DNA of 64,000 nucleotides, taken from Eledone cirrhosa. Lineage: Eukaryota. The DNA lies in the NCBI GenBank assembly GCA_964016885.1, contig OZ024740.1:118234001-118298000 (forward strand), in the 5' to 3' direction. Below, one piece after another: positions 16,705-35,382 of this stretch. Position 1 is the stretch's first letter, and every line of letters begins with the position of its first letter. Under the pieces are notes generated by a model. The model saw nothing but the letters and a program-made list of their open reading frames with translations. It did no database searches and had not been told where the DNA came from. The position numbers and the translations under genes are program-made.

Positions 16705-18465
16705 CCTCCAAATTTCTCTCCCTTATTATGAAGCATTTCCCTCCAGCACATAAATATAGTAACATTTTTAATAGAAATACCATTAACATTTTTTACTCTA
16801 CGAATCCTAACCTTGCACATAACATCACAGCTTCAAATTTAGCTAAATTACCTATCTGTAGGAACACGTGCAACCCTGTAGCTAGTACTAACCGTAATTG
16901 TAAGAATAGGGTTGATTGCACCCTGTCCGGGAAATGATTCTCTAGTAAAATTGTCTACAAATGTAGGGTTGAAACACCCACGTCCCGTAGGGCCTACATA
17001 GAGTTAACCGCCAATAGATTCAAGCAGCGTCTTTACATGCATACCCATTCTTTTCTTAACCCTTTAAGAAGGAATATGACGTCACTTTCAGCTTATATCT
17101 GGAGTCTAAAAGGCAACCACACACAATATAATTTACACTGGGAGATCCTAGCTACGGCTAGATCGTATAACGGAAATAAAAGACCATGTGACCTCTGCGC
17201 CGCCGAGGCCCTGGAAATACTCTACGCCAAAGACCACATCTTAAACAAAAAATCTGAGGCAATTTCGGTTTGTAAACATAAATTGCACGAAATTTTCCTA
17301 TATTACAGACCTACATTATATCCTAACGGATATTACGAACTATACGCGGATATTTTACGTCTTGATGTGGTAGCTAAGTATATGTTATATTAATACCATT
17401 ACTTATTCGTATAAGTAAGTATATATTACCTGTATGTTTTGTGAAGGTACGTATACTTTCTCGAACGTATATTTGCTTGTATATATTATTGGCCTATATA
17501 TTATATATACTGGTACATATGCATTTTTTTATGTGTATACGTGAGTTTTGCGCCTGTGTGAGTATGCGGGTTCGTACGTATGTAGGGTGTGTGTATATGT
17601 GTACTTTGTGTTTTGGTTGACGTACGTCCGCGAACATATGTGTATTTACATGTAGGTGTGTGTGTACACGCGTTATATACGTATTTATGTGTGTATATTT
17701 ATATACGTTTATTTAATTATGTATACACGCACACACACACACACTAATGTATATGTATATATGTTTTTATAAATATTTTTAATTGTATTTGGTGTATACG
17801 TTCGTACGTGTGCGGGAACAGACGTTGCGTGGGTTCTGTATGTGCGTGCGTGTTATTTTTTGTTTTTTATCGTGTACGTGCTTGCATTTGCATACTCATG
17901 GAGAGTGTTTTCGCGTATGCTTGTGTATGTACGTATATGGATGCGTGTATGTATATATTTAATTTCAATTACCTCTGTATTTTATTTACTTTATTCTTAA
18001 CTCTGAAGCTGAGAATCATTTGGTTTCCTACTTAGAATTTTAGTCTACGACTTCAGTTGTACCATTTAGGTGGTTTTGTCTTTGCTTGTAATTGTTCTCA
18101 TTGGTCCACATAATGACGTATTATCTTCGTTTTTTCCGTTCATTGCCAGAGAACGTCTCCATGAACCACCTAATAGAATATTAGTCTACGACTTCATTTA
18201 TACCATAAACGTAGTTTTGTCTTTCCGTGTAATTGTTTTCCACCGCTCCAAATATTGACGTATTATCTTCGTTTTTTTTTTTGTTCTTTGCCAGGGAACG
18301 TTTCCACGAACCAAAGTATCGTCTTCCTGTCTTCCTTCGGCTGCAACGTCTTTTGAAATATTTACTTCTGCGTTCACAGATTGACTTTTTTAGTTTCAGA
18401 AGATTCCGTTAAGGGTGAAAGTAGCGATTCTTTGCTAAAACTTTAATCTGTTATTTTAATAAATA
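16705..18465 (+). mobile_element. 5'-truncated Hydra-like PLE (linker + GIY-YIG + long 3' UTR), same family as 33217-35338
   Basis: KHFPP.HKY..IFNRNTI, IVYKC..AYI.LTANRFKQR, LSAYIW, RPCDLCAAE..CKHK. The 3' UTR has a ~140-bp tandem duplication (18041-18315), then an HHR motif and AATAAA before (TA)n. Confidence 0.85.
18392..18442 (+). ncRNA. Type I hammerhead-like motif with a full stem III and CAGAAGA core
   Basis: AGTTT-CAGAAGA-TTCC GTTAA GGGT-GAA-AGTA GCGATTCTT TGCT-A-AAACT. Stem I is 5 bp, stem III 4 bp, cleavage triplet CUA. A truncated sister copy lies at ~12443-12490 (-). Confidence 0.55.
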
Positions 18466-21104: not shown

Positions 21105-21154
21105 TTATTAGCCAACAATGTTTCGTCCTATTAAGGACTCATCAGGGCAATTAA
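21105..21154 (-). ncRNA. Minimal type I hammerhead ribozyme with canonical core
   Basis: GCC-CTGATGA-GTCC TTAATA GGAC-GAAAC ATT GTT-GGC then TAATAAA. All core nucleotides are intact. It ends an AT-rich PLE-like 3' UTR (~20960-22320). Confidence 0.8.
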
Positions 21155-23089
21155 AGCTATAAGAAGCACTATCAGCCAATACAAGCCGAAAACTCAGAAG
21201 GATATGGAGTGTACATAGATTAAATCATAGGAAAATAATCGGGTAAAAATTATCAAGTAAAAACTTATCAAATGAAAATTGCTAAGGAAGTAAGTAACAT
21301 TTTGAACCATATTACAAATATAGTCCAATGCAAAAACTAGAGCTAAAACAGAGGTGGTGATATAGAGCGGGAATTATTGTACTATATATAATATAATATA
21401 ATATAATATAATATAATATAATTAATAATGATAATAATAATAATGTTAAAAGGCCCAATATACATATATATATATATATACATATGTACACATATATACA
21501 TATATATCAATACACATTGCCATCAATAGAAGCACAAACTAACCCTTATTAAGAGTTTCAATATAAATAAGAATAAGAATAATAAAAATAAAAATAAAAA
21601 TACAAATGAAAATAAAATAAAAATATAATACATTTAATATTTACATTATAAAATGAAGAATAAATAATTAAAAGTAAGCATAAAATATATAATAAACTAT
21701 ATAATTATATAATAGATAATCTCAGGTTAATTTGCACAAACAATATAAATGTTACAATAACACTAAAATCACAATATTATAATATAATGGCAAATAACTT
21801 AACAAATCATATAGAGTTACAGTCAGGGTGAGAAAAAATATTGTACAGAACTAAATTATATTGGAAAAATTATGTTGGAAAAATATCAAAACCATTGCAA
21901 GAAAATAGATCAAATTTCTATACAGTTGGTGTAAATAAATATTATCCAAACATTACAAGAATTATAAAAATATAAACATATTACAGGATTTACAGAATTT
22001 AACATAACATAATGGTACAATTAATAATCGGTAAATAATAATGATCAGTAGTACGTTTACAAAGTGTGGAATGATATAAAATTTCAATATAAAATATTGA
22101 ACATAGTATAATATACATAATTACATGGTTGGTGGAGAGACATTTGTGAATAAGTGAATGAAAGCCAGACAGACAGACTACGCACGGTAGTATATATAAA
22201 TAAATACAATCAACCGGAAATCGAAAAACAAAAACAAAAGTATTTACTTAGGTGTCGCATGCAGTTAAGTAAAAAAATTAGGAAACAAACCCGGATAAAT
22301 GACTAGAAAACCCTATAATATACAAAAAAGGTTTTTAATCTCATTGCTGACAGTTGTTACTCTGAACTGGTAGGTCTAGAGATCGCTATTCGCTTGTTTT
22401 CACGTTACTCGATCGCCAATACAAAATTATAACCAGTCAGTTCTTCGGAGCATGCGAGAATGAAGAGGATATACAGGCCTGAAAGCAATATACAGGCTAC
22501 TATATGAAGTAGTAATGGCATTCAGTTAGAACAATAACAACAATTACAACAATGCTAGAAATAAATTATTTGAGGAGACCCTGACATTACATTTATTACT
22601 AGCATTGTTGTAATTGTTGTTATTGTTCTAACTGAATGCCATTACTACTTCATATAGTAGCCTGTATATTCCTTTCATGCCTGTATATCGTCTTCATTCT
22701 CGCATGCTCCGAAGAACTGACTGGTTATAATTTTGTATTGGCGATCGCGAAACGTGAAAACAAGCGAATAGCGATCTCTAGACCTACCAGTTCAGAGAAA
22801 CAATTATCAGCAATGAGATTAAAAACCTTTTTTGTATAGCAAACCATGTCAATTTTCTTTCCTGATTTATTATTACTCCAAGTGTTTACAACATAGGAAT
22901 TACAGCATACTCGCAACATCACTATGAAAACGCCTTGTTGAGTCAAACCAAGCCAAGCGTTTATATCATCCACTACCCGGAATACCATAACTGGACTACA
23001 CCTAAGTGGACTGCATATAACTATTATTTGTTACCCCGTATATTTAGCTCCCACCTGGTCGAGAAACACCATTAACGCACAGCAACAAC

Positions 23090-25493
23090 ATGGAGAAGCA
23101 CCGTATAGGAATGTCACTGAAAAACATACCAGTACCTACAAAAAAGGACTATACACTGGGCATGATACAACGGACTAATGATTTCATCCGCAGGGTCCGA
23201 TGGAAAGCTTACCATTTCGACAAGGGACCGAATACTAACGCAAGGGAATTTTCCAAGGAGAATTACGGGTTTAAATCCTGCAGAAACCCGCCTAACAACC
23301 CCGCACTCGATGCCTTCGAGCTAGACCTTATGAACATGATAAGTGAAACTAAATTCAAAAAAGGAACAAATCACAACAAATTACAAAAAGACATGAATAC
23401 ACTACTAAAAAAACTAAAAGACACTAACGGTATCATAGTAAAAGCAGACAAAACATCTAACGTATACTCTATGGACATTAACACATACAATAGCTTTATC
23501 CAGCGTGAACTACATAAAAAATACAAAAAAACAAATGAATCTACACTCACCAGCATTAACGCGGAGGGCCTCAATATAGTTAATAAACTCGGAATTCCCG
23601 ATAGGACCGAACCGCTAACCCCGTGCAACCCAACATTTAACCTGAAGGATCACAAAAATAATTTTGAAACAAACCCCACCATTAGATTAATATGCCCATC
23701 CAAGTCAGACATAGGCAAAATTAACAAGAACATTCTAGATAGGGTAATCGCACAAATAAAGGGCAAACTAGAAATCAATTTATGGGGTAACACTAACGAG
23801 GCAATTGAATGGTTCAATAAAATACAAAATAGGGAGACGTGTAACTTCATACAATTTGATATAGACGACTACTATGCATCCATATCCCCAGCTACCCTAG
23901 ATAAGGCGCTTATATTTGCCCAAAATAACTCCGATCTTACCCATGATGAAATTGAAATAATAATAGCGGCTAGAAGGACTATCATAAAATTTGAAAATAG
24001 CTACTGGGTAAGAAAAGATAGGATAAACAGCTTCGATATAACAATGGGATCAAATGACTCTGCGCAAATCACAGATATCGTGGGGCTATTCATAGCACAC
24101 AACCTACATAAGGAATTCAGTAACCTCCAAGGAGGAATTTATAGGGACGACACGCTACTTATAGCTAGGAACCTAAACAACCAGAGCATGGAAAGATTAA
24201 GAAAAAGCATTAGAATATCCTTCAAAAAACTAGGCCTAAGCATTTACCTACGAACTGAACCATAAGAAGGTAAACTCTCTAGATGTGCCTCTAAATCTAA
24301 ATACGGGATTAATAGAATCTTTCCACAAAAATAATGAAAATCTAGCCTACATTAGTTACAACTCAAACCACCCCAAATCCATAATCAGATCCATAGCACG
24401 TAGTATATCCCTCCGAATATCCCGCTTATCCTCTAACCTAGAAATCTTTAACGAACATGCTGACTATTATAATGCAGCATTACGTAGGACCGGTCATAAA
24501 GATAAACTACAGTATATAGCGAATAAAGACAACGTAAACAATCTTAATAGCAACTACACCAACCGCTCACACAATAATAGAAGTAACTGGACTAGACATA
24601 GGGTTAGGCACGTAGCACCTAGAGTGAACGGTCAAAACACTAATAACGTAAACCCAAGAAACAATAGAAGAATCAGACAAACAAAATACCTATGGTTCAA
24701 CCCAATCTTCAACTCCTCTATAAAAACTAGACTGCCTTCTACATTCTTTAAACTAATAGATAAACACTTCCCTATTTCACATAGATATCATAAAATACTC
24801 AATAGAATTACTATAAAACTATCATACTCGACAGCAGCAAATATAGAATCACACATACGCAAGATCAACCACAGAAATATCTCTAGTAAATCAGCCGCAC
24901 CTATGCACAACGTAGCACCAAATTATAAGCGTAAACACATCACAGTATCACAACCGCAAGCGCATACAAACGCACAGCAGCAAAACCCCAATGGGTATAT
25001 ATCACAACCCACTTATAACAGAGTACTAAACAGCAATGTAGAAGCTGCACAAAATTGCACCTCAAACTGTAACTGTCACCTACCGGATAGGTGCTCATTG
25101 GCGAACAAATGTCTCGATTCGAGCCTAGTGTACATGTGCACGGTCAACTTGGATAACACCACCTGGAATTACATAGGATCCACCGCGGGTTCTTTTAAAA
25201 AAAGATGGTATGTGCACAGGCACTCGATGAAAAACCGTGCACTTATGGGTTCCACAACCCTCGCCAAAAAAATATAGGAACTGAAGGACAACAACACTAA
25301 CTACAGTATTAACTGGTCGAAGTTGTCGGCTGCTAAAACCTATAGTACAGGTATGTCCCACTGCGGGCTATGTGATCTAGAACTAATGTATATCCTCAAA
25401 AATGTAAAAAGGCTACCTAACAATAAGTTAGAAAGATCTATCTTCTGCAGTCATAGAATTGCCACCAAATTCATAAGATTCAAACCTCCGTGA
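23090..25493 (+). pseudogene. PLE reverse transcriptase + GIY-YIG endonuclease (~800 aa) with one frameshift and one premature stop
   Basis: SLKNIP, RWKA, ADKT, QFDIDDYYASI, FDITMGSNDSAQITDIVG, GIYRDD; +1 frameshift near 24245; SNHP; CNCHLPDRC..NKC; LVY..YIGST..FKKRW..H; TAG in place of TGG at 25275-25277; then CGLCDLE..FCSHR to TGA at 25491-25493. Confidence 0.92.
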
Positions 25494-26347
25494 ATCGAAC
25501 CAACATAACATAGCTTTAAACTAGGATACCCACTACCCTGCATAAATCACCACAGAAATATACTCATTAAGTACACTCTAGCCTTCACAGTTCTATACCA
25601 CACAAATGTCTGTAAGTACCTCATCAACCCATAAACTTACTCCTTCTCAGCTGCGGCCATCACTTGATCCTAAATCCAAGAATTTCTCAAATCACTACTA
25701 CAATGTAACTTTACCTTCCTTTTGCCATACTTACAGTCAGCATGTTTATCTCTTTGCATGTATGTATGTATTTGTACGAGTGTATATTGATGTGTATGTA
25801 TGTGTCTATGTACACGTGCGTGTGTATATATATATATATATATATATGTGTGTATATGTGTGTATATATATATATGTATATATTGCCTCCTTAACCTCTG
25901 TATTAATTTGCCCATTGTTTAGCTTTGACAGTGTTGTCCCATACATGTATGTTATTGAAGGTGATAAGAAAGACTGTATTCTCATTTAATGTAGACCAGA
26001 CAAACTCTACTCAATGATAAATACTTCGTCGGTCAGATAAATACTGAACATTACGGCCACCTGACCTACATTGTTGATAAACACCGGCTTATCTCTAAAA
26101 TTGATATAATACACCCTACGACACTCCTTACACGCCAACCTTATACTTCTGCTTATGTCAGCTAGTTTTACACGCCGAAATCTTAGATACACTATACCCC
26201 ACACCTAATGTAATGTCAGGGTCTCCTCAAATAATTTATTACTAGCATTGTTGTAATTGTTGTTATTGTTCTAACTGAATGCCATTACTACTTCATATAG
26301 TAGCCTGTATATTCCTTTCATGCCTGTATATCGTCTTCATTCTCGCA

Positions 26348-26455
26348 TGCTCCGAAGAACTGACTGGTTATAATATTGTATTGGCGATCAAGTAACGTGA
26401 AAACAAGCGAATAGCGATCTCTAGACCTACCAGTTCAGAGAAACAATTGTCAGCA
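26348..26455 (+). ncRNA. pLTR hammerhead-like motif with CCGAAGA core and 81-nt stem II region (copies at 22705-22812 + and 22345-22452 -)
   Basis: TGCT-CCGAAGA-A CTGA CTGGT...ACCAG T TCAG A-GAAAC AATT GTC-AGCA. Stem I is 4 bp and stem III is the palindrome ACAATTGT. Confidence 0.7.
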
Positions 26456-26511
26456 ATGAGATTAAAAACCTTTTTTGTATAGCAAACCCATGTCAATCTT
26501 CTTTCCTGATT

Positions 26512-26567
<56 letters not shown>

Positions 26568-33067: not shown

Positions 33068-35382
<2,315 letters not shown>

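What the first reader, a model, noticed from the sequence alone, without database searches (positions are those of the whole stretch)
22320..26515. Near-intact Hydra-like PLE whose three pLTRs carry a non-canonical hammerhead (CCGAAGA core, 81-nt stem II)
Seen: each pLTR copy (22345-22452 -, 22705-22812 +, 26348-26455 +) has TGCT-CCGAAGA-[81 nt closed by CTGA/TCAG and CTGGT/ACCAG]-GAAAC AATT GTC-AGCA. The best copy is at 26348; each of the other two has its own point changes. The U4>C change in the CUGANGA box is present in all three. Known: PLE pLTRs commonly carry minimal type I HHRs with palindromic stem III that cleave as dimers, and U4 is normally near-invariant. Inference: U4C was already in the transposing template, so either this variant is active or the element moved without cleavage. 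The long structured stem II insert would evade standard HHR descriptors and may be an extra functional domain, such as a tertiary stabiliser or RT-binding site.
Basis: partly seen in the sequence, partly recalled or inferred. Interest (0 to 1): 0.75.

Follow-up and report, generated by a model that had tools for sequence, protein, structure and literature searches.

The report
Recurrent U4C hammerheads in Hydra retrotransposons
Thousands of copies of Penelope-like jumping genes in this animal genome carry a hammerhead RNA motif with one normally fixed core letter changed (U to C), probably a slowed but still working self-cutting RNA, and the change separates sister lineages at least three times, which gives ready-made natural pairs for testing what these motifs do.

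Summary
Observation confirmed. The window holds a Hydra-clade Penelope-like element (ORF broken by one frameshift and one stop) with three pLTR copies of a type I hammerhead whose box reads CCGAAGA. C4 is the subfamily consensus (269 C versus 5 T exact genome matches).

- U4 sister subfamilies (about 200 matches) and a sister family carry the same or a similar 81-85-nt rod.
- A second Hydra family (6,573 matches, 96 of 100 listed C4) has a 20-nt stem II.
- A third family has both C4 and U4 subfamilies.

The rod is under selection for pairing: 17 of 35 unpaired versus 2 of 46 paired positions differ between subfamilies, and both changes keep the pair. The other ten core positions never change. 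Insertions end 62 or 238 nt downstream of the predicted cut, and no 5' end maps to it, so the template is intact there.

Best reading: a slow, likely dimer- or protein-assisted ribozyme; cleavage is untested. Natural U4C is known from a viroid; I found no report in PLEs, though one key paper was unreadable. Earlier scan notes already saw long stem II Hydra hammerheads elsewhere in this genome.

The parts
22319..22574 (-). Inverted, 5'-truncated pLTR copy; its hammerhead (22345-22452) has A13>T and is predicted dead; ends about 29 nt past the cut site, shorter than the usual end
22591..22873 (+). Upstream pLTR (partial tandem unit); hammerhead 22705-22812 with C4 and a stem III G>A change; predicted cut between 22808 and 22809
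22809..23046 (+). Leader after the cut site; its 3' end (+238) is the second fixed insertion end of the family, a likely second RT start site
   Evidence: 56 of 133 copies end at +235 to +238
23090..25493 (+). Hydra-type RT plus C-terminal GIY-YIG ORF (RWK, DKT, YRDD, CxCx5C, YIG); 1-nt insertion near 24243, stop at 25275-25277; 92% nt identity to an open 808-aa copy (L066)
26234..26515 (+). Downstream pLTR, 3,643 nt after the upstream one; ends at the first fixed family end (+62) and runs into (TA)n
26348..26455 (+). Best hammerhead copy: stem I 26348-26351 / 26452-26455, box CCGAAGA 26352-26358 (C4 = 26353), GAA 26440-26442, stem III palindrome 26443-26450, C17 = 26451
26359..26439 (+). 81-nt stem II: a rod of 23 predicted pairs with bulges, internal loops and an 8-nt terminal loop, conserved as structure across 7 subfamilies
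26516..26556 (.). (TA)n microsatellite target at the 3' end
   Evidence: 115 of 122 copies at the two fixed ends are followed by TA-rich sequence

Best explanation
This is the pLTR hammerhead of a Hydra-clade Penelope-like retrotransposon in which core position 4 is C throughout several successive subfamilies, and it likely still cuts after GUC, slowly and probably as a dimer or with help from the element's protein. SHOWN: C4 is the consensus of subfamilies A, A2, B, C1 and C2, including the youngest one with open 808-aa frames; U4 sister subfamilies share the same 81-nt stem II; the other core letters and the rod's pairing are conserved while unpaired letters drift; insertions end 62 or 238 nt downstream of the cut site and often read through an upstream site. 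INFERRED: reverse transcription starts at those two internal sites on an RNA that is intact across the cut site (uncut tandem transcript or religated circle), so fast cleavage is not needed and may be costly; a slowed core is therefore tolerated and has become fixed more than once. INFERRED: the long stem II is an older feature, independent of U4C, kept as a base-paired arm whose length is free to vary.
For: C4 269 vs T4 5 exact matches for subfamily A; 1,702 family matches with 91 of the 100 listed C4. Among 7 subfamily consensuses 0 of 10 invariant core positions, 0 of 6 stem I and 2 of 46 paired stem II positions vary, against 17 of 35 unpaired ones (P=3e-6), while N4, N7 and N17 vary; private mutation rates in paired and unpaired columns do not differ (p=0.39). 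Family G (43% aa identity, its sublineages only 59-76% alike) has C4 in 43 of 48 fetched copies with N7, N17 and loop 2 free; its stem III centre runs A-T, G-T, G-C (14, 7 and 6 C4 copies), which keeps pairing only in a dimer. U4C is described as lowering activity in vitro yet sufficient in vivo for a viroid (PMC3088659, passage). A PLE hammerhead was protein-assisted and dispensable for insertion in vitro, with two internal RT start sites (PMC11167929). 122 of 133 copies end near +62 or +238; 8 of 46 endonuclease-selected copies cross the upstream cut site and none starts at it.
Against: No cleavage was measured. In a mutational scan of another hammerhead all single changes in the CUGA turn gave low activity (PMC9901934, passage). 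Within this family alone 0 of 10 core changes is not significant (about 20% of flank positions vary), and there is no two-sided covariation among the subfamily consensuses (1 single-copy case). The youngest subfamily B has an A-A mismatch in the stem III palindrome (predicted duplex -0.7 vs -6.4 kcal/mol), although published Hydra motifs also have such central mismatches. The lack of 5' ends at the cut site fits a non-cutting RNA equally well. The direction of the U/C change in this family is unresolved: three trees root it differently and C4 monophyly is not rejected (p-AU 0.24).
Confidence: 0.62

Rival explanations
1. The C4 motifs no longer cut; the hammerhead fold is kept as a structural signal (protein binding, template folding or RNA dimerisation), and cleavage is irrelevant to transposition.
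For: Hammerhead mutants did not affect insertion in vitro and no RNA reads began or ended at the cut site for the anole PLE (PMC11167929). No 5' ends at the cut site here. CUGA-turn mutants have low activity. PMC4209133 does not exclude functions other than cleavage.
Against: Catalytic letters G8 and G12 and a cleavable N17 (C or A, never G as a consensus) are kept in all C4 lineages across 43% aa divergence. A purely structural role need not preserve them.
Confidence: 0.22
2. U4C is a damaging change that hitchhiked in successful master copies; the motif is decaying and nothing selects on it in C4 lineages.
For: Few changes separate the subfamilies, so a short history can look like conservation; subfamily B has lost a stem III pair; the core test is weak within this family alone.
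Against: The paired/unpaired contrast in stem II (P=3e-6, with a neutral control) includes the C4 branches; family G has kept core and stems over deep divergence with pair-preserving changes; CpG sites in copies decay about four times faster than other sites in the older subfamilies, which would favour return to U.
Confidence: 0.08
3. One reading: the 81-nt stem II is an added domain that stabilises or rescues the C4 core, so the two are a co-adapted unit.
For: The rod is under structural selection, and a short bulged-A helix and the basal helix recur in family H with two apparent compensatory pairs (read by eye from two folds). Two of the three C4 lineages have long stem II.
Against: Long rod with U4 in D1, D2, H and J2; short stem II with C4 in G, the most abundant C4 family.
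Confidence: 0.08

Closest known systems
Hydra clade of C-terminal EN+ Penelope-like elements and their hammerheads (Craig et al. 2021, PMC8557442; section 11, passages, supplement parts 1, 2, 52, 53 read)
   Same: RWK and DKT motifs, CxCx5C linker, no CCHH, (TA)n targets, inverted 5' copy; type I hammerhead with an unpaired letter on each side of stem II and a short palindromic stem III.
   Different: All 26 Hydra rows of their File S2 have U4, a 3-7-bp stem II and a 3-10-nt loop 2; here C4 and an 81-nt stem II. Unit length is 3.5-3.6 kb against 'generally <3 kb'.
Minimal hammerheads of metazoan PLEs (Cervera and de la Pena 2014, PMC4209133; parts 1-2 of 4 read)
   Same: In pLTRs, extra nucleotide after A9, palindromic stem III, predicted dimer action, low activity expected; core variants (U3-A8) exist.
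   Different: No U4C is described in the parts read; the G10.1-C11.1 pair is not kept here; stem II is far longer.
Natural U4C viroid hammerhead (Ambros and Flores 1998; not held, known only from its citation in PMC3088659)
   Same: Same core change, reported to lower activity in vitro yet allow infection.
   Different: One variant of an RNA replicon; here it is the fixed state of whole retrotransposon lineages with thousands of DNA copies.
PAc Poseidon element of the green anole (Frangieh et al. 2024, PMC11167929; part 1 of 4 and passages read)
   Same: Two fixed internal RT start sites giving a 'tail'; hammerhead next to them; unprocessed RNA as template.
   Different: Different PLE clade and canonical core; here the two ends are 176 nt apart and lie upstream of the ORF.

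Membership tests
Hydra-clade PLE | Single ORF with RT and C-terminal GIY-YIG endonuclease | tested here: met
   Open 808-aa copies with YRDD and YIG; GIY-YIG Pfam hit just under cut-off in sister family H, none for the 808-aa protein itself
Hydra-clade PLE | RWK motif; DKG changed to DKT | tested here: met
Hydra-clade PLE | CxCx5C linker; CCHH absent; CxxC and CxH near the C-terminus | tested here: met
   CNCHLPDRC, CGLC and CSH read from the translation; no CCHH seen by eye
Hydra-clade PLE | Insertion into (TA)n | tested here: met
   115 of 122 copies at the two fixed ends
Hydra-clade PLE | Groups with published Hydra proteins in an RT tree | not tested
   Published Hydra sequences were read but not put into a tree; my trees hold only genome copies and unnamed database proteins
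Hydra-clade PLE | Canonical hammerhead in the pLTR (described as universal in the clade) | tested here: not met
   C4 core and 81-nt stem II; canonical U4 in sister subfamilies D1/D2. This is a description of the clade, not one of its protein-based definitions
Type I hammerhead ribozyme | Three helices around the core, stem I open | tested here: met
   stem III is stable only as an intermolecular duplex
Type I hammerhead ribozyme | C3-G8, G5, A6, A9, G12, A13, A14, A15.1-U16.1, H17 | tested here: met
   0 of 10 positions vary among 7 subfamily consensuses; N17 is C or A
Type I hammerhead ribozyme | U4 in the CUGA turn | tested here: not met
   C in 269 of 274 subfamily A matches; U in D1/D2
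Type I hammerhead ribozyme | Covariation in the helices | tested here: inconclusive
   Only one-sided pair-keeping changes within the family; apparent two-sided changes against family H and in the family G stem III; no R-scape-type test
Type I hammerhead ribozyme | Self-cleavage after position 17 | not testable with these tools
   Needs an in vitro assay or RNA end mapping

The most novel reading that the evidence does not exclude
Hydra-type PLEs have repeatedly been selected for a rate-lowered hammerhead: U4C became fixed independently in at least three lineages, against CpG mutation pressure, because the RT must copy through the uncut site, making cleavage rate a tuned parameter of PLE transposition that CUGANGA-based searches have hidden.
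Probability: 0.22. Interest if true: 0.75.

Novelty: new variant of a known kind. Interest (0 to 1): 0.52.

Why it matters
What hammerheads do for Penelope-like elements is an open question. This genome holds sister lineages that differ at one core letter (U4 in D1/D2 against C4 in C/A/B; J2 against J1), and the C4 lineages include the most abundant and the intact young families found here. These natural pairs make it directly testable whether cleavage rate matters for PLE spread. The result also shows that descriptors fixed on CUGANGA and short stem II miss thousands of motifs (over 8,000 exact-pattern matches in three families, mostly C4), so statements on hammerhead presence or absence in PLE clades may be biased.

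Tried and rejected
- Rfam scan found no hammerhead at the three copies. Unconstrained folding of the 126-nt stretch was not better than shuffles and mispairs the 3' end of the box.
- Pfam and PDB sequence searches did not name the 808-aa protein.
- No RNA holder was listed for the pLTR. The four runs laid were contigs, cannot show RNA ends and may include the source sample; they gave T at 26353 in 3-4% of depth in X1-X3, which I do not count as independent support.
- A candidate fourth C4 family (L128/L188) had 1 exact match in the genome and was dropped.
- The U4 copies of family G looked like CpG-decayed C4 copies, not a subfamily.
- Rooting of the family failed: on D, near C1, near A.
- A partner position covarying with N4 was looked for by eye: N7 is A, U, G or C with C4, so none was found.
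- Automatic alignment of family H to the family misplaced the rod and held one stray 10-nt row; I used separate folds instead.
- A sarcin-ricin-like AGUA/GAA motif in the rod (recalled consensus) is not kept outside subfamily A.
- Papers not held: Ambros and Flores 1998 and Lunse et al. 2016 on PLE hammerhead variants; the latter could already describe U4C.
Full report
1. Observation. The stretch 22319-26515 is an inverted 5'-truncated pLTR (22319-22574, minus), an upstream pLTR (22591-22873), a leader, an ORF (23090-25493), a 3' UTR with an internal microsatellite, and a downstream pLTR (26234-26515) that runs into (TA)n. All three pLTRs hold TGCT-CCGAAGA, 81 nt, GAA, the palindrome ACAATTGT, C, AGCA. 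Only the 26348 copy has an intact core; the 22705 copy has G16.2>A and the minus copy A13>T. The ORF has a 1-nt insertion near 24243 and a stop at 25275-25277, so this copy is not autonomous. Rfam misses the motif and the 126-nt stretch folds no better than shuffles. The case rests on comparison, not on this copy.

2. The element. The protein has RWK, DKT, YRDD, CxCx5C and YIG and lacks CCHH, the features by which Craig et al. define Hydra elements (PMC8557442 section 11). Open 806-808-aa copies exist elsewhere in G000. The 65 database relatives are unnamed or hypothetical and 29-41% identical. I did not determine the host and did not place published Hydra proteins in a tree.

3. C4 is the consensus. 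Exact patterns over the 3.0-Gb genome give 269 C against 5 T for the window's subfamily A. A wider pattern gives 1,702 matches, 91 of the 100 listed with C. Copies picked by endonuclease similarity, blind to the pLTR, had C in 24 of the 26 rows aligned, the window's own copy (L031) among them. From 182 distinct copies I resolved seven subfamilies: A, A2, B, C1 and C2 have C4; D1 and D2 have the canonical CTGATGA with the same 81-nt stem II (201 T4 pattern matches, some of them CpG-decayed C-type copies). The samples are biased by how they were fetched (T4 copies were sought on purpose; A copies were top hits). C2 and D2 look oldest (3% non-CpG divergence, 13% CpG decay); B has the open frames and no CpG decay. 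The unrooted order D-C2-C1-A-A2-B is stable, but three trees root it in three places and a clade of all C4 copies is not rejected (p-AU 0.24). So one U/C switch lies on the C2-D branch and its direction is open.

4. U4C recurs and is independent of stem II length. The nearest family, H (55-66% aa, copies 98-99% alike), has U4 and an 85-nt stem II. Family G (43% aa, an open 832-aa copy) has a 20-nt stem II and 6,573 pattern matches, 96 of the 100 listed with C4. Family J (42% aa, linked through one locus, L277) has a 93-105-nt stem II, 237 matches, and splits into a CCGAAGA and a CTGAGGA group; my hand count of the 100 listed is about 55 C, 40 T and 5 other. Families E and F have canonical short motifs. 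With U as the ancestral state this needs three switches; if D is a reversion, four changes, as many as with one early gain and three losses. Support at the deep nodes is below 90. A descriptor scan of 1.1 Mb fetched around these elements gave 37 motif groups; of the 30 outside this family and G, 17 have stem II segments of 45-101 nt, one of them probably chance; the backwards control gave 3 hits against 288. All 26 Hydra rows in the published table have U4 and loops of 3-10 nt.

5. Selection on the fold. The single-sequence fold of the A consensus is a 23-pair rod, matched by RNAalifold. Across the seven consensuses 17 of 35 unpaired and 2 of 46 paired positions vary (hypergeometric P=3e-6); both paired changes are C-G/U-G. 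Private mutations in copies fall evenly (0.0046 paired, 0.0058 unpaired, p=0.39), so composition does not explain the contrast. Core 0 of 10, stem I 0 of 6 and stem III 1 of 6 vary, while N4, N7, N17 and both letters flanking stem II change; flanks vary at 15 of 74, so the core result alone is not significant. No two-sided change is fixed within the family. The H rod shares the basal TGGT/ACCA helix and a bulged-A TTGG/CTAG helix, each with one apparently swapped neighbouring pair, at different spacing; this is read by eye and only suggestive. In G, C4 copies show stem III centres A-T, G-T and G-C (14, 7, 6 copies), which keep pairing only between two motifs. Against this, subfamily B and family H have a central mismatch in the palindrome, as do several published Hydra motifs.

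6. Insertion ends. Of 133 distinct copies followed downstream of the cut site, 66 end near +62, 56 near +238, 7 continue into the ORF and 4 end elsewhere; 115 of the 122 are followed by TA-rich DNA. Among 46 copies chosen by endonuclease match and long open frame, 8 extend upstream past the next cut site and none begins within 10 nt of it. The template is therefore continuous across the site: an uncut tandem transcript or a religated circle; these data cannot tell which. This parallels the anole PLE, where RT starts at two internal sites, the hammerhead needs the protein, and hammerhead mutants still insert (PMC11167929).

7. Mechanism. Shown: items 3-6. From the literature: U4C lowers activity in vitro but sufficed in vivo for a viroid (cited in PMC3088659; original not held); CUGA-turn mutants are weak (PMC9901934); metazoan PLE hammerheads are slow and act as dimers (PMC4209133; PMC6765202 passages). 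Inferred: the C4 motif is a slowed ribozyme kept by selection; because RT must pass the site, slow cutting is harmless or useful; the long stem II is an older paired arm and not a rescue domain. I give this 0.62, a non-cutting structural role 0.22, and decay or a co-adapted rescue domain 0.08 each.

8. Novelty. Seven keyword searches of the held library found U4C only in the Perreault passage and no report of C4 or of long stem II in Hydra PLEs. Lunse et al. 2016 and most subscription papers are not held; supplements of PMC4209133 and PMC3088659 were not read and may list such variants. PMC6155905 and PMC7461866 (passages) and one bioRxiv preprint (part 1 of 5) added nothing. Earlier scan notes on this genome already describe long stem II Hydra hammerheads and fixed ends; none held all my search words, U4C among them, and a search by sequence found nothing. 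Verdict: a new variant of a known kind, interest 0.52. Both oddities have precedents or are common here, but recurrent lineage-wide U4C with natural U4 sisters makes the role of PLE hammerheads testable.

Noticed in passing
window 21107-21151 (-): A canonical U4 hammerhead with a 14-nt stem II (weak Rfam Hammerhead_1 hit, 29.1 bits) in another repeat just left of the element; the repeat also occurs in L038, L241, L010 and L071.
   Followed up: partly
window 18752 (+): Another U4 hammerhead with an 8-bp stem I and an A/T-rich stem III palindrome, of a type seen many times in fetched loci.
   Followed up: no
window 2-1618 (+), 16707-17330 (+), 33281-34405 (+): Three further broken Hydra-type ORF pieces of other families; no hammerhead was found for the first one's family.
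   Followed up: partly
window 22319-22838: The inverted and upstream pLTRs form a 248-bp inverted repeat; a transcript through both would pair them and mask the upstream hammerhead.
   Followed up: no
window 22874-22900 and 23047-23060: Both fixed insertion ends are followed within a few bases by CTCC; the same holds after the end of family H (L256). Possibly part of the RT start signal noted in earlier scan findings.
   Followed up: no
window 26340-26347 and 26456-26461: Stem I is extended by a 5-bp distal helix that appears to switch register between subfamilies (read by eye).
   Followed up: no
L068:6061 (+): A U3-A8 core variant hammerhead with a 59-nt stem II (4 hits).
   Followed up: no
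L188:4672 (-): A single-copy C4 hammerhead with a 60-nt stem II; 1 exact pattern match in the genome.
   Followed up: partly
L276-L295 (family J): Two diverged subfamilies with 93-105-nt stem II rods whose inner hairpins differ in sequence but both pair; good material for a covariation test.
   Followed up: partly
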